Below, piece by piece: positions 30,858 to 64,000 of a DNA stretch of 64,000 nt. The stretch is from a candidate division WWE3 bacterium RIFOXYB1_FULL_43_24 (GTDB taxonomy: Bacteria; Patescibacteriota; WWE3; UBA101185; UBA10185): the NCBI GenBank assembly GCA_001773135.1, contig MEVX01000008.1, positions 25,992 to 89,991 on the forward strand, read 5' to 3'. The notes beneath the pieces are model-generated. The model did not search any database. It was not told the DNA's origin and saw nothing but the letters and a program-made list of their open reading frames with translations. Position numbers and translations under genes: made by a program. The stretch's first letter is position 1; the number at the start of each line of letters is the position of its first letter.

Positions 30858-30975
30858 ATTTTGGAGAGTACTCCAAAAAGTAGCATCATTCTGGAGAGTA
30901 CTCCAAAAAGTAGCATCATTCTGGAGAGTACTCCAAAAAGTAGCATCATTCTGGAGAGTACTCCAAAAAGTAAAA
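30858..30975. repeat. About 3.9 perfect tandem copies of a 30-bp unit (ATTCTGGAGAGTACTCCAAAAAGTAGCATC), each containing the palindrome GAGTACTC (GGAG-AGTA-CTCC)
   Basis: Read directly. The array ends 1 bp before the ATG at 30977. A degenerate partial copy (AAAAAGTAGTACTCATTTTGGAGAGTACTCC) precedes it. Confidence 0.85.
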
Positions 30976-30976
30976 A

Positions 30977-32528
30977 AATGAAGAACAAAGAACCGTCGAA
31001 TTTTAATAACTCAGATAACGACCCCGGAGGCCAGCCCTCAGATTTTTCAGATCCCATATCAATGCCGGAAGTAGACAACATGGAGTTTTTTCGAACTCCT
31101 GCAATGCTGAACAAAAACTCCAAGGCTTGGCACGAAAAAGAAATACCCATAAGAATAAATTCGTACAACCGACCAGAAGGTATAGAAATAAATATTGAAT
31201 CTAAGCTGATTAACGAACATAACTTAATGAAGTACCCCAACGGTATCTGGCAGAATTATCCGGAAGACAATAAAGCAAAGCTGCTTGATAACATCGCATA
31301 TATTTTTACAGCCCATCTACCTATGTTGCTAAAAGGAAATATAAGACTCGAATACAATACCGGATATCCTCAGTGCTTTTCCTGGTCCCAGCAGTCGTTT
31401 ATGAGGCACCTGCCACTATATTGGTATTACTATAAAAAGCGGGGCATGAGCGTAATGCCTATGCTCAAAACGCTGCTTAATTCCAGGGCGTACTTTCGCG
31501 ACACCACCGATGTTCCCCCGGAGTTCCCGATCAGCGTCGACGAGAACGTTATACTACCTTTTACATTCGGTAAGGACAGCTTTTTAACTTACCATGTTTG
31601 CAAAGAACTTAAATTAAACACAATTCTGGTTTTCTTCAATGACCCAACTTTTTTGGGTTACGAGGGGGCGCATAAAAAAGTCTTATTTGAAGAGTTCTTA
31701 AAAAAGAACAAAAATGATCTTTATTTTCTGGAAAATCCTATGGAAGGTCTGAGAGATAACGGAGATGGCTGGTTTGGGTGGGAATTAAGTCTGACATCCT
31801 GGGCGTTGATGTGTCTGCCGCTTGCTTACAAATATAAGGCAGGGTACATTTTATTCAGTAATGAAAAGAGTGTTAACGCTTTTTACTACGACGACCAGGG
31901 ATTTAAAGTAGTACCGGAATATGAACAGGCATACCAGGCAACAGAAGAAATGTCATTACTCACACAGGCTATGTCGGAGGGCGAGTTGTATACATCAACA
32001 TTTTTACAAGGGCTAAATGATTTGGCTATAGTTGCGGTGTTGAACGAAAATTATGCCAAAGAAACTTTTCCCTATCTAATGTCATGCTGGGACGGAAGTG
32101 AGGAGAAGCGCTGGTGCGGTAAATGCACAAAGTGTGCCAGACTTTATTTGTACCTGTCTGCAATGGGTATCAATCCAATAGAAGTGGCGGGCTTTGAGGA
32201 TGATATGTTTAGTGAGGATAAGATAGACCTTTATAATGCTTTTGGAGAAAAAGCCTCCGGTCTGGGTTGGGACTCTTTCGGCTTGAATAAAGATGAACAA
32301 GAACTGTCCTTTTATATATGCGCTAAGCTTGGTAACCAGGCTCCGCTCGTTCAGATCTTCAAGAATTCGGAAGCTTACCAAAGAGTAGAACAAAACCTTA
32401 ACGTGCTTGTCGATGAATATTTAGGTCTTCATGAGGAACACTCCTCCCCACTAATTTGGAGAACTCAGATAAATGAGATCTTTAATACAGCACTAAAAAA
32501 AGTAAGAGAAAGAGTTTTCAGTTTATAA
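30977..32528 (+). CDS. PP-loop ATP-pyrophosphatase superfamily protein, QueC/ExsB-like or N-acetyl-sugar-amidotransferase-like. If the N-terminus instead includes the repeat-encoded ESTPKSSIIL x3, the ORF starts at 30861.
   Basis: C-terminal SCWDGSEEKRWCGKCTKCARLY matches the QueC-type zinc motif SC[YW]xG-x7-CGxCxxCxxR. A degenerate PP-loop-like ILPFTFGKDSFLT is present. There is an N-terminal domain of about 150 aa with no match. Confidence 0.45.
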
Positions 32529-33756
32529 ATTCGTCGTAAAGTAAGTTCCAAAGTTCAGTATAACCGCCGTCATATCCGAGTGCCCAAATGCCCACACCCA
32601 TCAATCCGTTATTTTTAATAAGTTTATATTTAACTGCCAAAGACTTTTGATCTTCGTAGAAGACCTGTCTTAGTTGTCCGGTTTCTTCACTGATGTAACT
32701 AAAGTAGGGCACCTGACCGAGATCGTCCCATAAAATTCTGGGTTTTATATTAATAATTACGTCCATAATAGCTTCGTAAGATTGGGATTGGGAGTATCCG
32801 ATCGCGTCATTTCCATTTATTCTTTCTGCGTATTTTTCGTCTTTTCCGACTACCCAGTTGTAGCCGTAATAGGGTACACCCAGCAGCAGTTTATTTGGCG
32901 GTACGACAGCCAAATAGTCTTTCAGCATTGTTTCTATGTCGTATTCTGCGTGGACTCCTTTACCGCCGATCGGGGCAACAGGCCCGGCATTATCCGAGGA
33001 GGGCCTGTGAAAGTCATATCCCATTATAAAGATGCCGTCGCTGTATTTAGCCAAATTTTCCAAATCAGAACTTACACGATCCTTAACCGATGAATCTGCA
33101 AAAGCGGACACAACGACATTAGAATTTCCGTATCTTTTGTCGAGTTCCTGATTTGCGTATTTTGTAAACTCGGAGAATTTTACAGCCATGTCTTTTCCCG
33201 TATATTCGGCGTATTCAAAATTTAAGTTAACGTCAGTTATATTTTTTTCATCAAGTTCTGTGTAAATATTTTTTAGTAAATTATCCCAGCATTCTCTGCA
33301 GTCCAGAAAAGCATCGTTATCTTCGTCGTTGTGAGCTACTACCGTCAGCGCAAAATTTACCCCGAATTTTTTGCATGCGTCAGCAAGTTGCGTGACTTTC
33401 TCGTTTTCCTTCCAGTTTCTATACCCGGGCTCTGCAATCCATATACCCTCCGCGTCTTGCACGGTTTTTACAAAGTTACCTTCGCCGTCTATGTAAATAC
33501 CGAAGTAGGCAACATCAGTTAATCTGTCAAGCTCAATAAATTCCAGTTTCTCCAAGGTCCAGTAGGGAAGGTATCCATAAATCCTGTAAGCAGGTTTTTT
33601 GCGTTCTTTGAAAAGAGAGAGAATGTCGAAAGAGCTCGAATAAGGGGTCAGGGGGTGATTTTTATAGCTAAGTTTGCTTATATGCAGGCTTACCCCTCCC
33701 AATATCGTAACAATAAGAAATAGTACTAAAATTGTTTTTATCTCTGCTCTCACCAA
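32518..33756 (-). CDS. Membrane-anchored GH18-like glycoside hydrolase / chitinase-like protein
   Basis: N-terminal TM anchor. The GH18 catalytic motif has Asp replaced by Asn but the Glu is retained: TDVNLNFEY versus the DGxDxDWEY consensus. Aromatic-rich barrel segments. Confidence 0.55.
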   Translation of the reverse strand: MVRAEIKTILVLFLIVTILGGVSLHISKLSYKNHPLTPYSSSFDILSLFKERKKPAYRIYGYLPYWTLEKLEFIELDRLTDVAYFGIYIDGEGNFVKTVQDAEGIWIAEPGYRNWKENEKVTQLADACKKFGVNFALTVVAHNDEDNDAFLDCRECWDNLLKNIYTELDEKNITDVNLNFEYAEYTGKDMAVKFSEFTKYANQELDKRYGNSNVVVSAFADSSVKDRVSSDLENLAKYSDGIFIMGYDFHRPSSDNAGPVAPIGGKGVHAEYDIETMLKDYLAVVPPNKLLLGVPYYGYNWVVGKDEKYAERINGNDAIGYSQSQSYEAIMDVIINIKPRILWDDLGQVPYFSYISEETGQLRQVFYEDQKSLAVKYKLIKNNGLMGVGIWALGYDGGYTELWNLLYDEFIN

Positions 33757-54099: not shown

Positions 54100-54450
54100 C
54101 TAGTAGTAGTTCCTGGCCCGGTAAGACGTTCCACCCAATGCCGTTTGGATGTCAAGAAAAACTACCTGTTCGATTTTTGTCCAATCCCTCCCCCGTTTTT
54201 TAGAAAGACCTACGTATTCGTGAGTTAAATAGATAAAATCGAGTTCTTCGATCTTGTTTAACATAGTGAGGAGGGATGCTCCGATTGGCCCGATCTCATC
54301 ATTAAGTTTTTCATTTGTATCGGCACCGATCGGCAGTGTATAGATTTTGTGAGGAGCAATAGAGATCTGTTGGTCAGTGTAGTATTCTCTGTATTGGACA
54401 TTTGCCGAATCTTTCCTTACCCTGATTTCGATAGTACCTGGTTTGGCCAT
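54100..54450 (-). CDS. Hypothetical protein (116 aa) with a strong SD; apparently a monocistronic unit flanked by terminators
   Basis: SD AGGAGA 5 nt upstream of ATG 54450. No motif recognised. Confidence 0.45.
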   Translation of the reverse strand: MAKPGTIEIRVRKDSANVQYREYYTDQQISIAPHKIYTLPIGADTNEKLNDEIGPIGASLLTMLNKIEELDFIYLTHEYVGLSKKRGRDWTKIEQVVFLDIQTALGGTSYRARNYY

Positions 54451-54532
54451 TTTCTCTCCTTATTTAATGTCTTAATTTTAGACGTTGTTTTATATGTGAG
54501 TGCAGGTATTTTAGCATAGTGACGGAGAATTT

Positions 54533-54569
54533 AAAAAAAGAGGAGACTGGTTTTTGGCCGAATCTCCTC
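54533..54569 (-). terminator. Minus-strand rho-independent terminator: stem GAGGAGA/TCTCCTC, 16-nt loop, U7
   Basis: Read directly. It lies downstream of the stop of the secreted-protein gene 54607-55236 (-). Confidence 0.45.
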
Positions 54570-54606
54570 AGAGTTCAATGCTTGGTCAGTTATTTACACG
54601 TAGTGC

Positions 54607-55236
54607 TTAATGCTGTGTAAAAAATCCCAAACCAGGATCTGCGTAGATTGTTACGCCATGAGCGCCTACTGCAGGATCGTTGTACACCTCTTCAAGCACA
54701 TCATAGGATCCCCAAAGGGGGCTATCAGGACCAAAGTATCCAATCTTGACGAAGTACGTGTAGTGTTGCAGACCGTTGGCGTCGATGTAATCACCGTTGA
54801 CGTGGTTTGTTAACCAGCCGGCACTGATATTGGTAGGAACGCCATTTATAAGACCTCTATCAAGCTTATGGTCGCCGTTGCAATCAACGTTTGACAACCA
54901 CTCGTCCGACCATTTCATCTGCAACTTATCGTCGACAAAGTCGCCGGTTTGTCCCCAGTACATGCCGTCCAACTTCCTGTCAGCTGAGTCGTAGGTACCG
55001 TCGAAAAGATGCGCCTGGTAGTTGTATCCGTAAATATCGAAACCGGTTTCAAGGGGATTCCCCGCAGAATCTAAAATTGTTCCGCTCTGGATTTTAGCGC
55101 AATCGCTGGTTGACCACGCAGTTTCTGCCCCGGTTACCGGGTCAAACCCAACAGGCTTGTCTGCCAAGACAGGTGAGACGATCGTTAAGACCACCACGAG
55201 TGCAAGTATTACCGAAAACAGTCTCTTCGCTTTCAT
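54607..55236 (-). CDS. Secreted hypothetical protein (signal peptide)
   Basis: N-terminal signal peptide MKAKRLFSVILALVVVLTIVSPVLA. Mature part is rich in Gly, Asp, Tyr and Trp. No motif recognised. Confidence 0.5.
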   Translation of the reverse strand: MKAKRLFSVILALVVVLTIVSPVLADKPVGFDPVTGAETAWSTSDCAKIQSGTILDSAGNPLETGFDIYGYNYQAHLFDGTYDSADRKLDGMYWGQTGDFVDDKLQMKWSDEWLSNVDCNGDHKLDRGLINGVPTNISAGWLTNHVNGDYIDANGLQHYTYFVKIGYFGPDSPLWGSYDVLEEVYNDPAVGAHGVTIYADPGLGFFTQH

Positions 55237-55438
55237 TTTCTCTCCGTTTCAACTAAAAGAATTGGTGAATCTGCGACCAAGCAGACGCATACTATATCAC
55301 TGTTATGTATATTTGGAAAGGCGGGTAGAGACGATTTCGTAAGGTGTGAGATGTGAGGTAACTAAACTAGTTGAACAATAAAAAAGGGTAACCCCGAGAC
55401 CAAAAATTTCTGGTTTCAAGATTACCCTTCGCGAGCAG

Positions 55439-56194
55439 TTAATTTCTTTTATTCAGGAGGTATTTTTTCAGACCCAAATAAAAGATTAACACACACAAAA
55501 TACCCATACTCAAACCGGCGAGAATTTCTCCCCCATAGAATCTGGTAACGGTTACCGCAAGATTTTCTCCATAGCCACTTGTGGGGACAGGTGGGGGTGT
55601 GCGGGTTGGTTGAGGGGGCCCCGGCGTTGCAGTAGCTGGCGGTACCCAAGTATTTGTAGGTGTCGGCGGTACTTCGGTTGGCGGTACTTCGGTTGGCGGG
55701 ATTTCTGTCGGCGGTACCTCTGTCGGTGTTGTTGTAGGTGTCTCCGTGGGTGTCGATGTTGGTGTTGCCGTGGGCGTAGATGTAGGTGTCTCCGTGGGCG
55801 TCGATGTAGGTGTTGCCGTGGGCGTAGATGTAGGTGTGCTGGTTTTCGTTGGAGTAGGTTCCGGTGTCTTTAACACGTCGTAAGGAACCAACTCTTGTAC
55901 TGTGTCTCCGCACCAGAAGCGATTTACGCTGGGTATATAACTGCACACAGTTCCTACCGTGGGATTTGGCAACGCGGGATTGTTGCAGTACGCGTTTACA
56001 ACGTAGCCACCTGCTCCACCGAGCTCAAACCTAAATTGCGAGCCCGACACTCCCGGTACCGGACCATAGCCCAGATCGTCAATTACGCGCCAACCCTCTT
56101 TCGGTAGATCAAAACCTGCGCTAGCAGCGGTGTTCAACATAGCCGCCAGAAAAACAAAAACAAATAGTATAGTCACAATTTTGAGCTTATTCAT
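55439..56194 (-). CDS. Secreted protein with a Cys-containing N-domain, a long Pro/Thr-rich linker (TPTSTPTATPTSTPTETP... then EVPPTEIPPTEVPP) and a C-terminal TM plus basic tail
   Basis: Signal peptide MNKLKIVTILFVFVFLAAMLNTAASA. C-terminus ILAGLSMGILCVLIFYLGLKKYLLNKRN is a hydrophobic helix plus KR tail with no LPXTG. Confidence 0.55.
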   Translation of the reverse strand: MNKLKIVTILFVFVFLAAMLNTAASAGFDLPKEGWRVIDDLGYGPVPGVSGSQFRFELGGAGGYVVNAYCNNPALPNPTVGTVCSYIPSVNRFWCGDTVQELVPYDVLKTPEPTPTKTSTPTSTPTATPTSTPTETPTSTPTATPTSTPTETPTTTPTEVPPTEIPPTEVPPTEVPPTPTNTWVPPATATPGPPQPTRTPPPVPTSGYGENLAVTVTRFYGGEILAGLSMGILCVLIFYLGLKKYLLNKRN

Positions 56195-57052
56195 TTACTG
56201 CCTCCTATATTCAAGGATTACAATTAGGCGCTCGCTCGAATACCACGGTTCGTGGAATATATCCCTGGCGCTGGTAATAATGACGATACTTCTGTCATTC
56301 AGGGAGACGCCGATGAGTTGGGATAGTTCTGTCGGATCCATAGACCTTACAGAGCTGAGATTTTCGTATTTGATTATCCCGGCTCCGATCAACAGTAATT
56401 CAACAGAAACATCCTTTTGTTTTAATACGACCGGAGATTTTTTCAGCTCTTCGATTGCCGTGCTCATCCGGCTTTCCGAAAGATCTGTTAGTGCGTCGTC
56501 ACACCCTCCCCCTTCAAAATGACGTCTGAGGTACTCACCTTCAAGTTCGGTCCAACCGGACTTTCCGCGGTACTTAAAACATCCTGAGTGAGGATTTACA
56601 GTGACATTGCCCCAATCATCTGCCCAGACCCCTGATTTGTAAATTCCCGGCTTATAATCGTCAGGACCGTTTACAGGGATAACCGGGGTGAATGAGACGG
56701 AAAAGGGATCACCCGGAGTTGGGAAAAACCATATTTCTATCGTATCAAAACTGTCGAATCTTATTCCCTTAAAATCATACGGATTTACTTGTAAGGTCGG
56801 TTCCGGTGTCGTTTCAGGCGCGGCGACCGTCATAGATAGCACAGGCTGGTCCACAGACACGGGAGTACTCCGGAAAGGTTGAAATGGAGTTGGTGTTGCT
56901 GTGTAATCAGGTGCTTTAGCCGATACGAACTGTTCTCTTGACATGGGTGCCCCGCGCAATAATTCCTGAGCAATGGGTGCCATCACCTTAAAGTCAAGGA
57001 ACAACAGCAGGACAAAAATAAAGAGCAAGACTTCCATAACAGTTTTTTTCAT
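56195..57052 (-). CDS. Secreted hypothetical protein (signal peptide); start taken at the Met of MKKTV. The track ORF extends to 57097.
   Basis: MKKTVMEVLLFIFVLLLFLDFKVMA is signal-like. The start codon of 55439-56194 abuts this gene's stop, so the three co-directional secreted-protein genes are probably co-transcribed. Confidence 0.5.
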   Translation of the reverse strand: MKKTVMEVLLFIFVLLLFLDFKVMAPIAQELLRGAPMSREQFVSAKAPDYTATPTPFQPFRSTPVSVDQPVLSMTVAAPETTPEPTLQVNPYDFKGIRFDSFDTIEIWFFPTPGDPFSVSFTPVIPVNGPDDYKPGIYKSGVWADDWGNVTVNPHSGCFKYRGKSGWTELEGEYLRRHFEGGGCDDALTDLSESRMSTAIEELKKSPVVLKQKDVSVELLLIGAGIIKYENLSSVRSMDPTELSQLIGVSLNDRSIVIITSARDIFHEPWYSSERLIVILEYRRQ

Positions 57053-57305
57053 CGACCCTCCTAGGTCATTGATAATAGTCAAATTTTCAAAGTACACACG
57101 TTCCCTTTGTTTAGAGTGTGAATACCCGATAGTTTAGCACGAAACTATAGGTTTGGAAAATTGGTAAGGAGCTAAAAAAATCCCGTTCGTTGCCTTTGTC
57201 CAAGCATAGAACGGGGAGAAATTTACTTGGGGACCGGTACTTTAAATACATTTTCCCCGAAAAGTGTCACGGCGACGATTTTTGAGTATTTTTCCCATCT
57301 CCCTC

Positions 57306-58489: not shown

Positions 58490-59956
58490 TTATTTGTCCT
58501 CTTCTATTGTCAGTGCCACACTAACGCTTACCATCTTATCTTCTAGAAGAATTCCCTCGGGTAACAACAACTTTACCGGTAGAACTGTAGACTCGTTTTT
58601 GTCAGATAGATCTATCGGTTCTGTGGATATTTCAGTTGAAGCTTCTATTCCTTCCGGAACCCAAACTTTCAAAGATTTAGGTTCAGCTTCTGCTCCTTTC
58701 AGGGCAAGATCAGCTTTAAGTTTTCCTGCCGTTTTCACGGAAATGGGTATTTCTGCGGGATAATATTTTTGCGCAGTCAGGAGTAGTGTGGATGGTTCGA
58801 ACGAAATGATAGAAAAATTTGCCGGCCCCGTAATAAGATTTTTTGATATTTGCAGTTTATTTATGCCGCTCTGTAAGTTGGATAAGTCAAGATTAATTTT
58901 AAAATCCTTAACCGCTATATCTTTAAAAGAATCTTCTCCTCTTGTTGAAACCTTTATTTTTAATTCTTTAGGACTATATTCCTGAATGATGATGTTTTTA
59001 GGTACCTTTAAATTGTCAAAGGGCACGTTGTAAGTTTTCTCAACGATACCTGCCTGGTAGGCAGCAAAAAACCATATTATGCCTGCAACTGTCAGAGAAC
59101 CCAGGCGCAGCAAAAAGTCCTCTTTAATTATCTTTTTCAGTTTGCTCTCTTTAACATTTTTTGAAAATTTAGCTTTAATATACTTTTCGAATTCTTTTTC
59201 AAGGTCGGTGAATTCCTGTAGCGTTTTTAATTTACCGTCTTTGGATATAGAGATTTTCCCGTTTTCTTCGGATACTACTATGGCAAATGCGTCCGTTAGT
59301 TCGGTAATTCCTAATGCAGCACTGTGACGTGTACCGTGTTTTCCTATTTCTTTAAAGTTTGTAGATAACGGTAGGTGAGTAGCGAATTTTGAAACTCTGT
59401 TGTTGCTAATAATCAAGGCCCCGTCGTGTCCGTAAGAGCGGGGTTCAAAAATACTTGAAATCAACTCTTCAGAAATTACCCCATCCAAAGGGACACCGCC
59501 GTCAACAAACTGGTCCAGACTGTCTTTTCCCTGCACTACTATTAATACACCGATTTTTGCCTGCGCCATTTTTACACACGCCTGAATAATTTCTGAGGTG
59601 GTCGGAGACCTTGTTGCTAAAGGAAGTACCTTCAGCTGCCTCGAACCAATAAGACCCAGAAACTCGAAGTACCTTCTTATTTCATTTTGGAAAATAATGA
59701 CAAATATCAGAACCGACACACCTATAAAATATTTCAAGGCTAATAATGTGACATAAAGGTTAAAACTCTTTGCAAAAAGATACAACGTCGCTGCAATCGC
59801 CAGGCCCAAAAACACCATTAAAGTTTTGGTGTTGCGGAGGAAAAGAAACAACGAGTATATGAGGAGAGCTACTATCAGGATGTCGAAAAAGTCTGTAATA
59901 TAAAGGTTTCCTTTAAGTTTCACAAGGTTGTTGAGAACGCTGAACATACTGAACAT
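58490..59956 (-). CDS. cdaA: Diadenylate cyclase CdaA fused to a YbbR/CdaR-like C-terminal region
   Basis: 3 N-terminal TM helices. DAC domain motifs DGALIISNN and GTRHSAALG (RHR variant). These are followed by about 230 aa of beta-rich repeats resembling YbbR. Confidence 0.75.
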   Translation of the reverse strand: MFSMFSVLNNLVKLKGNLYITDFFDILIVALLIYSLFLFLRNTKTLMVFLGLAIAATLYLFAKSFNLYVTLLALKYFIGVSVLIFVIIFQNEIRRYFEFLGLIGSRQLKVLPLATRSPTTSEIIQACVKMAQAKIGVLIVVQGKDSLDQFVDGGVPLDGVISEELISSIFEPRSYGHDGALIISNNRVSKFATHLPLSTNFKEIGKHGTRHSAALGITELTDAFAIVVSEENGKISISKDGKLKTLQEFTDLEKEFEKYIKAKFSKNVKESKLKKIIKEDFLLRLGSLTVAGIIWFFAAYQAGIVEKTYNVPFDNLKVPKNIIIQEYSPKELKIKVSTRGEDSFKDIAVKDFKINLDLSNLQSGINKLQISKNLITGPANFSIISFEPSTLLLTAQKYYPAEIPISVKTAGKLKADLALKGAEAEPKSLKVWVPEGIEASTEISTEPIDLSDKNESTVLPVKLLLPEGILLEDKMVSVSVALTIEEDK

Positions 59957-60059
59957 GGCTTGATTTTAACAGTAATTAGTCGATCGTGGCTAGGTGTAAT
60001 AGTGTTTGACAGATTTTCGTTTATTGACAATGTAGGGGCTACTAAATACCATTATATTT

Positions 60060-60371
60060 ATGGCAGAAAGATTTAACTCTGACAGCACCGAAACGTTTAC
60101 GGCCACTGATGGAACTGAAGGTTGGCTAGGCCGCGCTCCCACGCAGGAAGAACTCGCAAAAGATAGCAGAAAACAAGCCGAGGCTAACGAAAGTATGAGA
60201 AATCAAATAGCAGCTAGGGAGGAAAAACTCGGTATTGCACAGCCCCCAACTAAAGAATTGATTGATAGTTTGCAGTCCGAATTCGATGTAATAGAGCCTG
60301 AGACACACGAAGAGAAAAAACCTGATACGGATGAGGTTATCGCAGAGTTAAGAGAACTTTTCAAAAATTAA
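60060..60371 (+). CDS. Hypothetical acidic protein (103 aa)
   Basis: ORF only. Divergent from cdaA. Confidence 0.4.
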   Translation: MAERFNSDSTETFTATDGTEGWLGRAPTQEELAKDSRKQAEANESMRNQIAAREEKLGIAQPPTKELIDSLQSEFDVIEPETHEEKKPDTDEVIAELRELFKN

Positions 60372-60842
60372 GCTTTATTATCTACAGGAGTTCGTGTTTT
60401 CTAGCGTTTTTTATTCAACTTTCGAATGTTCGGTTATATATTCTTTATTCATCCGGGAGCTTTTTAAAAGCACTTTTTTTGGGTCGTCGTATGTTTTTTT
60501 AAGACGTTTTTTCGGCTGTCAGGACGCCTCAAACGAAGACCTATAGCATTAGTAATCGTGAATTTGACATCGGCCTCTAGTAATGGCAATATCCTAACCA
60601 AGTGTCAATCCTGTCGCTTAACACTATAGAATTTTTATAACTGCCGCCTTGCCTGTTTGTACATCTCAGCACGTGACCTCTAGGGTTGAAGATGAAGCTG
60701 AGATGGGCACTTTGAAAATTAATGATAGTAGACAGTGAGTACTAGACTAGAGGTTTCTTGTTACGGTAGCTTTTACAATGCTGTAATTCAAGAAATATAA
60801 TTCAGCTTTGTCATAATCACGAATCATACGAAAGGAGATGAT

Positions 60843-61841
60843 ATGGAGGACAGTGAGATTGTTTGGGATAAGCTTCCAAGAGCTCTCAGACCGGGTGTCG
60901 GTGAGGTCCTATTTTGGAAGTTCGCCACTTTTGTTGTGACCGGCGTCACTACAACTATTTTAAGTTGGGCAATCCGGTCAGCCGTACTAAGCATTCTACG
61001 CGGTAGTTTTGGAGTTGCAGGGCAGAGCCTAATCAATGCAGGAAATGTGATGCTTTTCGTGTTTTGGGTGTTTATCTTGGTTTGTTCTTTTGTTGTCATG
61101 TCAGGCGCAACTATTATTCCGTACAACACCGCTTTGGTAACACTTACCTTCGGTAAGTTCAGAAAAGTTCACAAAGCAGGTTATGCATGGACTTTGCCCG
61201 TACTCGAACGTTGGGTAAAATTCGTAGATTTGCGTACTAAGACGCGGGGAGTGACTGCAAACCAGGCACTAACCTCAGACAACATCCCGGTAGACGCTTC
61301 AGCAAACATCTTTTTCCGTGTCTTCGACCCGCTTAAGTCAGTATTTTTGACTGACGATATCGAAGCTTTGCTTCTAGCGCAGGCCGAGATTGCAACGAAA
61401 GACCTACTTTCAGGCTGGTCCGTAATGGCTTTGAATGACCAGCAGGTGAGACAGGAGGCATCTGTAACTTTGCTCGATAAACTTAGCTCGAAAATGGAAC
61501 CTTTTGGGGTTCAAGTGAGCGACGCCCGCTTTTCAGATATTGTTGTGACCGATGAAAAGGTTCAGGACAGTATCATCCGGCAACTTAGGGCGGAGCTTGA
61601 AAAAAGCGCAAGGGTTACTGAGGCTGAGGCCGATACATCAGTAAACAAAACGCTTATAGATTTGATTGAGAGATACCTTCCGGATCTGACCCCTCAGGAG
61701 AAGGCATCTATGATGCTTTCTCTGAGAAAGGAACAAACGAAACAATCGTTTTCCGGATCCTCGAATGTGTTGCCGGTGTTAAACCTGTCGCAAGATGAAA
61801 ACAACCCATCTTTGGGAATCAATCCGATATTAGGAGAATAG
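60843..61841 (+). CDS. SPFH/band-7 (stomatin/prohibitin/HflK-C family) membrane protein
   Basis: Two N-terminal TMs, then the SPFH core (YNTALVTLTFGKFRKVHKAGYAWTLPVLERWVKFVDLRTKT ... NIPVDASANIFFRV) and a C-terminal coiled coil. Confidence 0.8.
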   Translation: MEDSEIVWDKLPRALRPGVGEVLFWKFATFVVTGVTTTILSWAIRSAVLSILRGSFGVAGQSLINAGNVMLFVFWVFILVCSFVVMSGATIIPYNTALVTLTFGKFRKVHKAGYAWTLPVLERWVKFVDLRTKTRGVTANQALTSDNIPVDASANIFFRVFDPLKSVFLTDDIEALLLAQAEIATKDLLSGWSVMALNDQQVRQEASVTLLDKLSSKMEPFGVQVSDARFSDIVVTDEKVQDSIIRQLRAELEKSARVTEAEADTSVNKTLIDLIERYLPDLTPQEKASMMLSLRKEQTKQSFSGSSNVLPVLNLSQDENNPSLGINPILGE

Positions 61842-61850
61842 GAGACTGAA

Positions 61851-62183
61851 ATGGATCAGCTTAACGCGATTAAGGAAGGGCTCGGTGTTTTGGCGGCATT
61901 TTTAATATCGGCCGCCGTGCTAGTGGGTGTGGTTCTTATGGCTTTTAATTTGATTAAGGGCGGCGTCCACAGCACAAAGAAAATTTCTGAAATGCAGGAA
62001 TCTGATGAGGACCAAGGAAGGACCATAAAGTACGGTCTTTTATCTGTACTTGTATTTCTTATCGGGATTCTGTTCATCGGGATTGTTTTCGTGCTCCCCA
62101 GCTTTCAGACTTTCACGACTGCGGGAACTTCCGGCTCCAAATTTCTTGATATGATCTTTAGCATCCTTTCGCTTGGAGCTTAA
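61851..62183 (+). CDS. Small 2-TM membrane protein (110 aa)
   Basis: Two long hydrophobic helices separated by an acidic loop. Starts 10 bp after the SPFH stop. Confidence 0.5.
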   Translation: MDQLNAIKEGLGVLAAFLISAAVLVGVVLMAFNLIKGGVHSTKKISEMQESDEDQGRTIKYGLLSVLVFLIGILFIGIVFVLPSFQTFTTAGTSGSKFLDMIFSILSLGA

Positions 62184-62206
62184 CATGTGTTTGGAAGGGA
62201 GCTGAC

Positions 62207-63709
62207 ATGAAGATAATTCTATTGTCGCTCTTGTTACTTGACACAGGCCCGATCGGCTTATTAATACGTTTCGTAAAGGCGTTTTTTGAGGTCGCCGGTA
62301 ATTGGCCTTCTGGACAACCGTTCAGTATGGATACCATGTTACTGGAAGCTTTCAAAGTCATGGCTTTCCAGGAAGTAGGGATAGCTATCGATGACTTTGT
62401 AATAAACCTTACAAAAACGCCTCAGATTTACGGCACACCTATAGGAGAACTTTTGGGTGTGGGGGTGGCAGTTGTCGCAGCTCCCGTATTAATATTTGCC
62501 GCGGTAAGATTCTGGCGAACTAATGCGGAGACAATAAAGTCGGCTCCTATCGGAGACATGCCCCCGGTCGTAGATACGGCGCGTATGTACGTAAAGTTCG
62601 GTATCCTGTTTTCTATAGCAGGAACCTGCGTATATATAAGTCAGTGGGTTCTGGATCTGTCGTATACCCTGGTTTATGAGTTAGTTCAGGCTTTGTATGG
62701 CGGACAAGGAACATCAGCAGAAACCTGGAGTATTATCGTAGAACGTGTGCTCGAGAAACCTACGATAGAAATGCTCCTAGCTTTGTGGGGTGTAACTGTC
62801 ATTTTAGGGTTGGGTATCGTCGTCGTTCTGTTTTGGAGATTCATAAGATTTCTCTGGGCCAACATAGAGTTTTTTATGTTGGCGGCAAGAACCGTAGACG
62901 ATCCGAACTATAGCCTATGGATACCCATCCTCAGCTACTTAAAATGGCTAACTCTACTAATCCTAACGGTCTTGATTATTCTAATCGGACCAAGATTCAT
63001 AGTCGTATTCACCGGTTTGAATGGTTTTTTCATGGTCTTGGCATTGGGTGTTGTCCTTTACGCCGGGATTAAAATTCCGACGTTGTGCGGTGACTTCATA
63101 GATGTCGAAATTGCACGTATCGAAGGCAACGAAGATATCTCTGTCGATTTCCTGAAACGGGAACGTATCCTGACTTCCAGGATTATCTCCGTGGGGAAAA
63201 AAGCCGTTCAAATAGCATCACCTCAGGCCGGGGTCACTATCGCTACCGCTGAAGAAGTATTACGTGAAGTGAAGAGCGGAAATGTTGAAGAAGCTTACAA
63301 TTCATTCTCACGTAATTTTTCGAAGCACGATGTGGCTACAGAAAACTCAAACCGTGATATTAGCAATGCAGACGAAGGTGTCTCTATCTCCGTTAATACG
63401 GATACTGTAGAAACATCTGAAGCTAGCATCAGTAATTCCGAACCGATACAAGTAAACATAAAGAAATCTACGTCCCCGTTACCGGAGTCGTATATTTCTA
63501 AGATGCTAGAGTTGGATTCCTCGTTACCTAAAAATCAAGCTTTGATAGGTTTGGTTACCGCAAAATACGAAGGTGGGAACGTGGGATCATACGAAAATCT
63601 TCTAGAAGATGCCAGATTCCGCATAGAAAGTCTTTCTTCGGATGACCCTGAGTTTTTAGCTTGGGCGAGTAAAGGAAGAGATGTGGTGTCCAGGATCAAA
63701 GGAGAGTAG
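62207..63709 (+). CDS. Large polytopic membrane protein (about 7 TM in the first 290 aa) with a hydrophilic Ser/Glu-rich C-terminal domain
   Basis: 500 aa. Topology only; no motif recognised. Confidence 0.5.
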   Translation: MKIILLSLLLLDTGPIGLLIRFVKAFFEVAGNWPSGQPFSMDTMLLEAFKVMAFQEVGIAIDDFVINLTKTPQIYGTPIGELLGVGVAVVAAPVLIFAAVRFWRTNAETIKSAPIGDMPPVVDTARMYVKFGILFSIAGTCVYISQWVLDLSYTLVYELVQALYGGQGTSAETWSIIVERVLEKPTIEMLLALWGVTVILGLGIVVVLFWRFIRFLWANIEFFMLAARTVDDPNYSLWIPILSYLKWLTLLILTVLIILIGPRFIVVFTGLNGFFMVLALGVVLYAGIKIPTLCGDFIDVEIARIEGNEDISVDFLKRERILTSRIISVGKKAVQIASPQAGVTIATAEEVLREVKSGNVEEAYNSFSRNFSKHDVATENSNRDISNADEGVSISVNTDTVETSEASISNSEPIQVNIKKSTSPLPESYISKMLELDSSLPKNQALIGLVTAKYEGGNVGSYENLLEDARFRIESLSSDDPEFLAWASKGRDVVSRIKGE

Positions 63710-63711
63710 CC

Positions 63712-64000
63712 ATGCATGTTAAAGAGAAAAAAGGAGTCAGATTTTTTGGTAAAACTTCAAATCTGACTCCTGACGACAATCCGTCGGTTCCGAGACAGCA
63801 GATGATGACTTACAGCCGTAGAAACTACGGAAAATTAGGTCACCTGCTTAGTTACAGGAAAGAACTGCCGGGTGGATATAGTTTCGCAGTTCTTCCTGCA
63901 GTAATTTACCTTTCGGCTTTTGTACTTTGGGTGGCAATTTTAAAACCCTTAGTTACAAGATTGTCGGGAGTTGACGCAACGGTATTCACGCCGTACGTTC
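63712..64000 (+). CDS. Partial ORF (continues beyond the window) encoding a protein with an N-terminal hydrophilic region and a TM helix
   Basis: SD GGAGAG 6 nt upstream of ATG 63712. Starts 3 bp after the stop of the previous gene. Confidence 0.35.
   Translation, partial: MHVKEKKGVRFFGKTSNLTPDDNPSVPRQQMMTYSRRNYGKLGHLLSYRKELPGGYSFAVLPAVIYLSAFVLWVAILKPLVTRLSGVDATVFTPYV

What the first reader, a model, noticed from the sequence alone, without database searches (positions are those of the whole stretch)
60372..64000. SPFH-domain protein followed by small 2-TM and large 7-TM membrane proteins, behind an unusual 470-bp AT-rich leader
A 470-bp non-coding region precedes a tightly spaced four-gene module. 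The leader contains three CCTCTAG heptamers (two of them inverted), an 8-bp inverted repeat ATCTCAGC/GCTGAGAT and a TTACGGT site.

The module comprises an SPFH/band-7 protein, a 110-aa 2-TM protein, a 500-aa protein with about 7 TM helices and a hydrophilic tail, and a further TM protein with a good SD that runs off the window. SPFH proteins usually pair with NfeD partners, so this gene order (SPFH first, then small hairpin protein, then large polytopic protein) is atypical.

A 2-TM small protein followed by a polytopic protein resembles the VirB2-pilin / VirB6-like core of type IV secretion and conjugation systems. This is a low-confidence hypothesis.
Basis: inference. Interest (0 to 1): 0.5.

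Follow-up and report, generated by a model that had tools for sequence, protein, structure and literature searches.

The report
Stomatin-led divergent type IV secretion operon
The four genes are the front half of a seven-gene chromosomal operon in an ultra-small groundwater bacterium (candidate division WWE3) that encodes a very divergent type IV secretion machine, and its first gene, unusually, encodes a stomatin-like membrane-scaffold protein.

Summary
The gene observations hold. There are four tightly spaced + strand genes: an SPFH/Band_7 protein, a 110-aa 2-TM protein, a 500-aa polytopic protein, and a fourth membrane protein that runs off the window.

The "unusual leader" is not special. 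It is only mildly AT-rich, its heptamer and inverted repeats are within chance, it has no excess RNA structure and it has no Rfam match.

The native contig continues with a 233-aa polytopic protein, a 734-aa P-loop ATPase, a membrane-anchored SLT+M23 peptidoglycan hydrolase and a lipoprotein.
- A confident AlphaFold model of the ATPase matches only VirB4/TrwK over its full length (Foldseek E 1e-20; next folds 1e-7).
- Its profile aligns to pCF10 PrgJ (hhalign 95%, E 3e-8).
- Gene order is collinear with pCF10 prgF/G-H-I-J-K-L.

The VirB2-pilin assignment of the 110-aa protein remains unsupported.

The family is tiny: 16 representatives among 1.84 billion proteins, invisible to Pfam and NCBIfam VirB4 models. 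The SPFH gene leads the operon in 5 of 5 close relatives but not in more distant ones. This is a new variant of the known Patescibacteria T4SS.

The parts
60372..60842 (.). Intergenic region upstream of the operon. It contains a sigma-70-like promoter candidate at 60772-60801 (TTTACA-18-TATAAT). The CCTCTAG and inverted-repeat motifs are within chance expectation.
60843..61841 (+). Gene 1: a stomatin-type SPFH/Band_7 membrane protein of 332 aa. It has an N-terminal hydrophobic region and a C-terminal helical tail.
   Evidence: Pfam Band_7 E 1.8e-24. The closest solved relatives are PH1511 stomatin (1.2e-13) and QmcA (6.6e-10). It is the first gene of the operon in 5 of 5 close orthologous loci.
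61851..62183 (+). Gene 2: a small 2-TM hairpin protein of 110 aa with a K/E-rich loop. It is a T4SS membrane component of unassigned type, in the position of PrgF/G, VirB3 or VirB2.
   Evidence: Hydropathy. Orthologue alignment A5. It is homologous to the L019 counterpart (hhalign 96%). No pilin or VirB3 profile hit.
62207..63709 (+). Gene 3: a polytopic membrane protein of 500 aa, with about 6-7 TM segments and a hydrophilic C-terminal domain. It is the candidate VirB6-like channel subunit.
63712..64000 (+). Gene 4 (first 96 of 233 codons; the rest is beyond the window): a 4-5-TM membrane protein immediately upstream of virB4, in the position of VirB3/PrgI.
   Evidence: Full gene on the native contig at L001 11506-12207. 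Alignment A6 has invariant N114, W121, G123, R146, W197 and others. No family hit.

Best explanation
The finding is the 5' half of a seven-gene, chromosomally fixed operon of a candidate division WWE3 (Patescibacteria/CPR) bacterium. The operon encodes a highly divergent, monoderm-type (MPF_FATA-like) type IV secretion system.

Gene order:
1. SPFH/stomatin protein.
2. Small 2-TM protein.
3. VirB6-like polytopic protein.
4. 4-5-TM protein, in the VirB3 position.
5. VirB4 ATPase (734 aa).
6. Membrane-anchored SLT+M23 peptidoglycan hydrolase (VirB1 analogue).
7. Lipoprotein.

Shown: the ATPase has the full-length VirB4 fold and intact Walker A/B motifs. The hydrolase domains are identified. The operon is conserved and collinear with pCF10 prgF/G-H-I-J-K-L. 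The SPFH gene is the first gene in the closer relatives.

Inferred:
- The VirB4 hexamer docks on the polytopic proteins to form a cytoplasmic-membrane translocon.
- The hydrolase opens the cell wall locally.
- The stomatin-like protein forms an oligomeric ring or cage that corrals, stabilises or gates this membrane complex.
- As no relaxase or coupling protein is nearby, the machine probably serves host interaction (transfer of proteins or other substrates between the epibiont and its host cell) rather than plasmid conjugation. This is what has been proposed for other Patescibacteria T4SSs.
For: - Native contig: searches give the five genes downstream of the 110-aa gene. NCBI names the ATPase as a hypothetical protein of candidate division WWE3 bacterium RIFOXYB1_FULL_43_24.
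- ATPase model: AlphaFold2 pLDDT 82.3, pTM 0.78.
- Fold match: the 14 best Foldseek PDB hits are all TrwK/VirB4 of R388, at E 1.9e-20 to 5.5e-12; 13 of them align over 760-860 columns, i.e. full length, and the 14th is a partial chain of 489 columns. The next folds (EccC, HerA, FtsK) start at 3e-7.
- Profile match: hhalign of the family profile against pCF10 PrgJ gives probability 95.1%, E 3.2e-8, over 269 collinear columns from the N-terminal domain to Walker A.
- Motifs: Walker A GxxGxGK[ST], Walker B hhhhD[DE] and TxQ[ST] are conserved in all 14 family members.
- Hydrolase: SLT_2 (2.9e-8) plus Peptidase_M23 (9.7e-12), with an N-terminal TM segment.
- Last gene: a lipobox cysteine is present in 9 of 9 orthologues.
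- Synteny with pCF10.
- The same operon occurs in L004, L006, L007/L008, L013, L014, L017, L018 and L019, at 24-36% ATPase identity (alignment A2; 20-34% in A1) (loci).
- Band_7 is first in 5 of 5 closer loci.
- The flanks are housekeeping genes, and partly the same ones in relatives: ClpB-L19 in L001 and L007, PBP-MreB in L006 and L014.
- Literature: Patescibacteria T4SSs are MPF_FATA-related, mostly lack a relaxase, often have M23-containing VirB1 homologues, and are essential for epibiotic growth in Saccharimonadia (PMC12102498).
Against: - No curated VirB4 model recognises the ATPase. Pfam gives nothing. NCBIfam conju_CD1110 gives 11 bits against a cut-off of 325.
- The profile search of PDB sequences finds only P-loop matches.
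- No homology to VirB2, VirB3 or VirB8 was detected for the other three membrane or lipoproteins.
- No T4CP was found in the 64-kb window or the 10 kb downstream.
- The role of the SPFH protein is inferred only from conserved gene order. The gene is absent from the operon in L018 and is separated from it by four genes in L019.
- In Agrobacterium, SPFH proteins are dispensable for T4SS function (PMC8656257).
Confidence: 0.8

Rival explanations
1. An ordinary stomatin/NfeD-type membrane-scaffold operon with unrelated membrane proteins and no secretion function.
For: The SPFH domain is genuine. The small and polytopic proteins have no family hits.
Against: None of the partners hits NfeD or has an OB-fold domain. 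A VirB4-fold ATPase and a cell-wall hydrolase follow in the same tightly packed operon. The six-gene core exists without SPFH in L018, so the core is not an SPFH accessory.
Confidence: 0.03
2. The T4SS belongs to an integrative conjugative element or plasmid remnant and transfers DNA by conjugation.
For: VirB4, a VirB6-like protein and a hydrolase are the core of monoderm conjugation systems such as pCF10, to which the gene order is collinear. The ATPase profile aligns best to a conjugative VirB4, PrgJ.
Against: - No relaxase, coupling protein, integrase or replication gene lies in the 64-kb window or 10 kb downstream.
- The flanks are housekeeping genes and are partly syntenic in relatives.
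- All components co-diverge to about 20-35% identity, as expected for vertical inheritance.
- There is no tblastn match in 72,556 plasmids.
- GC content shows no island.
Confidence: 0.07
3. A VirB4-driven DNA-uptake (competence) or other import machine. It would be analogous to the archaeal Ced/Ted systems or Helicobacter ComB, and would help an auxotrophic epibiont scavenge nucleic acids from its host.
For: VirB4-based importers exist and lack relaxases, and the Ced and Ted VirB4s are discussed in PMC12102498. CPR bacteria depend on hosts for nucleotides (general knowledge). No T4CP is nearby.
Against: No CedA/CedA1-like or ComB-specific component was detected. No DNA-binding or nuclease gene is in the operon. 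The direction of transport cannot be read from sequence.
Confidence: 0.1

Closest known systems
Patescibacteria-clade T4SS (MPF_FATA-related; Quinonero-Coronel et al. 2025, PMC12102498; essential for epibiotic growth in Ca. Southlakia epibionticum according to that paper)
   Same: - Chromosomal and monoderm-type: no VirB7/9/10.
- VirB4 sits next to polytopic membrane proteins and a peptidoglycan hydrolase carrying an M23 domain.
- No relaxase or T4CP is nearby.
- The host lineage is CPR.
   Different: - The VirB4 is so divergent that an exhaustive phmmer search of 1.84 billion representatives finds only 16 relatives and no canonical VirB4. Pfam and NCBIfam VirB4 models miss it.
- No TrsD, PrgI or VirB2-profile proteins were detected.
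- An SPFH gene leads the operon. That paper's main text and held supplements contain no SPFH, Band_7, PF01145 or stomatin term.
Enterococcus faecalis pCF10 Prg/Pcf conjugative T4SS (MPF_FATA prototype)
   Same: The order is collinear: small TM proteins (PrgF/G), polytopic PrgH (VirB6-like), PrgI (VirB3-like), PrgJ (VirB4), PrgK (cell-wall hydrolase), PrgL (membrane-anchored, VirB8-like). PrgJ is the one component with detectable profile similarity.
   Different: - There is no adhesin (PrgB), T4CP (PcfC) or relaxase (PcfG).
- The hydrolase uses SLT+M23 rather than the PrgK domain set.
- The last gene encodes a lipoprotein.
- The VirB6 candidate is twice the size of PrgH and has a cytoplasmic tail.
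- An SPFH gene is added.
- Apart from PrgJ, no component shows sequence similarity.
R388 Trw T4SS (MPF_T; solved structures 7o3v, 7o41, 8rtb)
   Different: It is a diderm system with an outer-membrane core complex, pilus, VirB11 and T4CP. There is no sequence-profile similarity beyond the P-loop.
Prokaryotic stomatins (PH1511, E. coli QmcA) and flotillin scaffolds of secretion systems
   Same: The SPFH domain plus C-terminal helical region is typical of ring- or cage-forming stomatins. T4SS and T6SS co-fractionate with SPFH-marked detergent-resistant membranes in Agrobacterium (PMC8656257). From my own knowledge, not checked here: flotillin FloA aids T7SS assembly in S. aureus.
   Different: Here the SPFH gene is genetically embedded as the first gene of the T4SS operon and has co-diverged with it. 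There is no NfeD partner. In Agrobacterium, the SPFH proteins were dispensable for the T4SS.

Membership tests
Type IV secretion system (VirB4-based) | A VirB4 ATPase with an N-terminal domain, a C-terminal RecA-like domain and Walker A/B motifs | tested here: met
   Full-length Foldseek matches go to TrwK/VirB4 only (E 1.9e-20). hhalign to PrgJ gives 95.1%, E 3.2e-8. The motifs are conserved in 14 of 14 members.
Type IV secretion system (VirB4-based) | VirB4 recognised by curated sequence models (Pfam AAA_10/CagE_TrbE_VirB/DUF87; NCBIfam VirB4 families) | tested here: not met
   There is no Pfam hit for P0001. One member of 14 has DUF87 at E 0.077. NCBIfam conju_CD1110 gives 11 bits against a cut-off of 325. 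The CONJScan T_virB4 profile was not available.
Type IV secretion system (VirB4-based) | A VirB6-like polytopic membrane protein encoded near virB4 | tested here: inconclusive
Type IV secretion system (VirB4-based) | A VirB3-like small membrane protein that anchors VirB4 | tested here: inconclusive
   There are two candidates by topology and position: the 110-aa 2-TM protein and the 233-aa protein directly upstream of virB4. Neither shows profile similarity to PrgI or TrwM.
Type IV secretion system (VirB4-based) | A VirB1-type peptidoglycan hydrolase in the cluster | tested here: met
   SLT_2 at E 2.9e-8 and Peptidase_M23 at E 9.7e-12, immediately after virB4, with an N-terminal TM segment. 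This gene is conserved in every locus that extends past virB4.
Type IV secretion system (VirB4-based) | A VirB8-like (NTF2-fold) bitopic protein | not tested
   The terminal lipoprotein (233 aa) has no Pfam hit in 6 orthologues and no hhalign match to PrgL or TrwG.
   No such Pfam hit at E <= 1 appears in 5 orthologues. hhalign to TrwL gives 0.1%. The NCBIfam 'pilin-like' hit at E 0.05 occurs in one member only. The two-helix topology is present but is not specific.
Conjugative T4SS (mobile element) | A relaxase and a type IV coupling protein (VirD4/TcpA) associated with the cluster | tested here: not met
   None is present in the 64-kb window or 10 kb downstream. The rest of the genome was not searchable.
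SPFH / stomatin family | A Band_7 domain above Pfam's gathering score, with a membrane anchor | tested here: met
   87.2 bits against a cut-off of 23.6. A TM segment lies at residues 69-87. The closest solved relatives are PH1511 stomatin and QmcA.
SPFH-NfeD operon | An adjacent NfeD (OB-fold, membrane-anchored) partner gene | tested here: not met
   No NfeD hit appears in any neighbour. The 110-aa protein has no room for an OB-fold domain.
HflK/HflC | A score above the NCBIfam equivalog cut-offs | tested here: not met
   33 bits against 159 for HflK, and 27 bits against 134 for HflC.

The most novel reading that the evidence does not exclude
The stomatin-like protein is a dedicated structural subunit of this T4SS. 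It would form an SPFH ring or cage that encloses or gates the VirB4/VirB6 membrane translocon. In a wall-bounded monoderm with no outer-membrane core complex, it would substitute for a scaffold. This would define a previously unrecognised T4SS subclass of WWE3/Microgenomatia bacteria that standard VirB4 models miss.
Probability: 0.3. Interest if true: 0.7.

Novelty: new variant of a known kind. Interest (0 to 1): 0.58.

Why it matters
T4SSs are emerging as a central and, where tested, essential organ of the epibiotic lifestyle of Patescibacteria. Surveys find them through VirB4 sequence models.

This operon shows that some lineages (WWE3 and Gottesmanbacteria-like) carry a VirB4 machine so divergent that curated models, and even exhaustive single-sequence HMMER, do not connect it to known VirB4s. 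Genomes scored as lacking a T4SS may therefore have one.

It also offers the first case I could find of an SPFH/stomatin gene hard-wired into a secretion-system operon. That turns the long-debated idea of SPFH microdomains as assembly platforms for secretion machines into a testable, genetically defined pairing.

Tried and rejected
- Word-indexed homologue searches with the ATPase, the 500-aa protein and its alignment returned only the queries themselves.
- The scans for related loci in genome and metagenome contigs found only loci already in hand. The 14-sequence alignment was too diverse to seed a scan.
- Neither the single-sequence nor the profile search of PDB sequences identified VirB4. 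Both gave only P-loop matches.
- Pfam and NCBIfam gave nothing for the 110-aa, 500-aa and 233-aa proteins or the lipoprotein, in up to seven orthologues each.
- hhalign of every operon family against all pCF10 Prg proteins and R388 TrwL/M/K/J/I/G was negative except for ATPase against PrgJ.
- Foldseek with the low-confidence model of the 500-aa protein was not significant.
I got round this through exact cluster look-up.
- I checked the leader for an RNA family, excess structure, motif enrichment and motif conservation. All were negative.
- I considered an NfeD partner, a T7SS EccC-like ATPase and a HerA/FtsK-like ATPase. I rejected them.
- A plasmid origin was rejected.
- I could not establish whether the 2025 survey scored these particular proteins as VirB4. 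Its supplement is truncated. The Gottesmanbacteria genome GCA_001779095.1 is listed 'Yes' for VirB4, but the protein responsible is not visible.
Full report
**Observation**

The region holds four co-directional, tightly spaced genes: 60843-61841 (332 aa), 61851-62183 (110 aa), 62207-63709 (500 aa), and an ORF that starts at 63712 and runs off the window. The gaps are 9, 23 and 2 nt, and each gene is preceded by a GGAG-type ribosome-binding site.
- Gene 1 is a genuine SPFH/Band_7 protein (Pfam E 1.8e-24, 87 bits against a cut-off of 23.6). It is of the stomatin type. Its closest solved relatives are PH1511 stomatin (1.2e-13) and QmcA (6.6e-10). It falls far below the HflK/HflC cut-offs.
- A hydropathy scan gives two TM segments for the 110-aa protein. 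It gives about six for the 500-aa protein, followed by a roughly 190-residue hydrophilic tail.

**The leader**

The 471-nt upstream region does contain the three CCTCTAG heptamers, a 9-nt perfect inverted repeat and TTACGGT. None of this exceeds chance.
- 26% of Markov shuffles of the leader carry some complex 7-mer in three or more copies.
- The motifs are absent from the equivalent regions of orthologous loci.
- GC is 37.6% against a window mean of 41.8%, the 7th percentile.
- Predicted RNA structure is no better than in shuffles (z = -0.31), and Rfam finds nothing.
- A near-consensus sigma-70-type promoter candidate (TTTACA-18-TATAAT) lies at 60772-60801, about 40 nt before the start codon. 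Most of the 'leader' is therefore probably just a long intergenic spacer. Long spacers of 395-1232 nt do recur upstream of the orthologous operons.

**Extending beyond the window**

The 500-aa protein is found, by exact sequence, on groundwater-metagenome contigs of up to 95 kb among those read. NCBI assigns the neighbouring ATPase to candidate division WWE3 bacterium RIFOXYB1_FULL_43_24.

On the native contig (L001; window coordinate = L001 coordinate + 52206 in this part) the operon continues as follows:
- a 233-aa protein with 4-5 TM segments (the ORF cut by the window end);
- a 734-aa soluble protein with a GQNSAGKS Walker A motif;
- a 454-aa protein with an N-terminal TM anchor, an SLT_2 lytic transglycosylase domain (2.9e-8) and a Peptidase_M23 domain (9.7e-12);
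- a 233-aa protein with a lipoprotein signal.

After that, the genes switch strand (HisRS and others).

**The ATPase is a VirB4**

Sequence methods barely see it.
- Pfam and a single-sequence search of PDB sequences give nothing.
- NCBIfam gives a sub-threshold hint to the 'VirB4-like conjugal transfer ATPase, CD1110 family' model (E 0.09).
- An exhaustive phmmer search of 1.84 billion representative proteins finds only 16 relatives.

An AlphaFold2 model built from 14 of these is confident (pLDDT 82.3, pTM 0.78). Foldseek against the PDB returns TrwK/VirB4 of plasmid R388 as the 14 best hits.
- E-values run from 1.9e-20 to 5.5e-12.
- For 13 of them the alignments span 760-860 columns, so they cover both the N-terminal and the ATPase domain (the 14th is a partial chain, 489 columns).
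- The next folds (EccC, HerA, FtsK, the viral packaging ATPase B204) begin thirteen orders of magnitude worse.

Independently, hhalign of the family profile against PrgJ, the VirB4 of the Gram-positive plasmid pCF10, gives 95.1% probability and E 3.2e-8. The match covers 269 collinear columns from the end of the N-terminal domain through Walker A. The same profile does not align to TrwK beyond the P-loop. This fits an affinity with the monoderm MPF_FATA class.

Walker A, Walker B (hhhhD[DE]) and a TxQ[ST] motif are conserved in all 14 members, so the enzyme looks active.

**The other components**

The 500-aa protein could only be modelled poorly (six sequences, pLDDT 57).
- Foldseek ranks the same protein fifth, but not significantly.
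- Profile comparisons with PrgH and TrwI are negative.
- I treat 'VirB6-like' as moderately supported.

No homology could be shown for the 110-aa hairpin, the 233-aa polytopic protein or the lipoprotein. The only 'pilin-like' hit (NCBIfam, E 0.05) does not recur in any orthologue.

Positionally, the operon is collinear with pCF10:

| This operon | pCF10 counterpart |
|---|---|
| Small TM protein | PrgF/G |
| Large polytopic protein | PrgH (VirB6-like) |
| Membrane protein just before virB4 | PrgI (VirB3-like) |
| VirB4 | PrgJ |
| Cell-wall hydrolase | PrgK |
| Membrane-tethered extracytoplasmic protein | PrgL (VirB8-like) |

**Conservation and the SPFH gene**

The same operon was recovered around other family members.
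- L004: an assembly labelled Saccharibacteria, 35% ATPase identity, with a scaffold gap inside the operon.
- L006: Ca. Gottesmanbacteria RBG_16_52_11.
- L007/L008, L013, L014, and more distantly L017, L018 and L019.
- The polytopic proteins, the lipoprotein and (in L019) the small protein are demonstrably homologous across these loci, with hhalign probabilities of 95-100%.

Band_7 is the first gene in all five closer loci that have enough upstream sequence (L001, L004, L006, L007, L014). The SPFH proteins have diverged about as far as the other components, to 21-25% identity.

In L019 a Band_7 gene lies 5 kb upstream on the same strand, with four genes in between. In L018, a 956-kb contig, none is adjacent. 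The six-gene core is therefore the conserved machine, and the SPFH gene is a lineage-specific but stably linked addition.

**Context**

The rest of the window is housekeeping: UvrABC, PBP, ribonucleotide reductase, aminoacyl-tRNA synthetases, PolA, PolX, ClpB, GatAB, FtsA, CdaA.
- No relaxase, coupling protein or integrase lies in the window or the 10 kb downstream.
- There is no compositional island.
- Flanking genes are partly shared with relatives (ClpB-L19; PBP-MreB).
- There is no match in 72,556 plasmids.

This argues for a vertically inherited chromosomal system, not a conjugative element.

**Comparison with what is known**

A 2025 survey (PMC12102498) established several points.
- Most Patescibacteria carry a chromosomal T4SS whose VirB4 forms a clade nested in MPF_FATA.
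- It usually lacks a relaxase.
- VirB6 and VirB8 are often undetectable, especially in Microgenomatia.
- VirB1 homologues sometimes carry M23 domains.
- The T4SS genes are essential for epibiotic growth in a cultivated Saccharimonadia strain.

The present operon fits that picture in kind, so it is not categorically new. It differs in two respects.
- Its VirB4 is extremely divergent. It is not reached from, and does not reach, canonical VirB4s by HMMER.
- An SPFH/stomatin gene is its first gene. Neither that paper and its held supplements nor my full-text searches mention such a link.

The nearest published connection is biochemical. T4SS and T6SS co-fractionate with SPFH-marked detergent-resistant membranes in Agrobacterium, where the SPFH proteins were nevertheless dispensable (PMC8656257).

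**Mechanism**

Shown: a VirB4-fold ATPase with intact catalytic motifs, a bifunctional wall hydrolase, conserved membrane partners and conserved operon structure.

Inferred:
- VirB4 hexamers dock on the VirB6-like and 233-aa membrane proteins to form the cytoplasmic-membrane translocon.
- The anchored SLT/M23 enzyme cuts a passage through the peptidoglycan.
- The lipoprotein and the small hairpin protein complete the extracytoplasmic or periplasm-like part.
- The stomatin-like protein, by analogy with ring- or cage-forming stomatins such as QmcA, delimits a membrane patch in which the complex is assembled, stabilised or gated.
- The substrate and the direction of transport are unknown. Given the absence of relaxase and T4CP, and the literature on Patescibacteria, host-directed transfer is most likely. 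DNA uptake is a live alternative.

**Verdict**

The gene observation is confirmed and the leader observation is not significant. The finding is a new, strongly divergent variant of the known Patescibacteria T4SS with an unreported SPFH lead gene.

Noticed in passing
window 58490-59956 (-): A single 488-aa protein combines the CdaA N-terminal TM domain, the diadenylate cyclase (DAC) domain and YbbR repeats. From my own knowledge, CdaA and its regulator CdaR (YbbR) are separate proteins in Firmicutes. This looks like a cyclase-regulator fusion.
   Followed up: partly
window 60060-60371 (+): A 103-aa highly acidic, hydrophilic ORF with no family hit lies just upstream of the operon spacer. It has its own promoter-like site (TTGACA-17-TACCAT at 60024-60052). 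It is called as a gene on the native contigs, but no counterpart is called upstream of the SPFH gene in L004, L006, L007 or L014.
   Followed up: partly
window 54100-57097 (-): A block of four consecutive minus-strand ORFs (116, 209, 251 and 300 aa) has no Pfam match at E <= 0.01. One of them differs in length (267 against 251 aa) between otherwise near-identical contigs L001 and L002, which suggests a variable region.
   Followed up: partly
L004 / L009 (GCA_964612565.1, CAZTDP010000004.1): This record is labelled 'uncultured Candidatus Saccharibacteria bacterium' but carries the closest relative of the WWE3 operon (ATPase 35% identical). A run of N inside the operon artificially fuses the SPFH and VirB6-like reading frames. 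The taxonomic label may be wrong.
   Followed up: no
L019 379-5538: In this more distant relative, four extra genes (339, 316, 229 and 175 aa, mostly with one N-terminal TM segment) sit between the Band_7 gene and the T4SS core. They could be lineage-specific accessory components or substrates.
   Followed up: no
window 30861-33756: A 555-aa ORF with no family assignment lies next to a GH18 (chitinase-like) glycosyl hydrolase on the opposite strand (32518-33756). That is an unusual enzyme for a reduced CPR genome.
   Followed up: no
upstream of the SPFH gene in L001, L004, L006, L007, L014: All five operons are preceded by an unusually long spacer (395-1232 nt) that is lower in GC than its locus by 4-15 percentage points. 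No shared motif was found with the simple k-mer check. A regulatory role was not examined further.
   Followed up: partly
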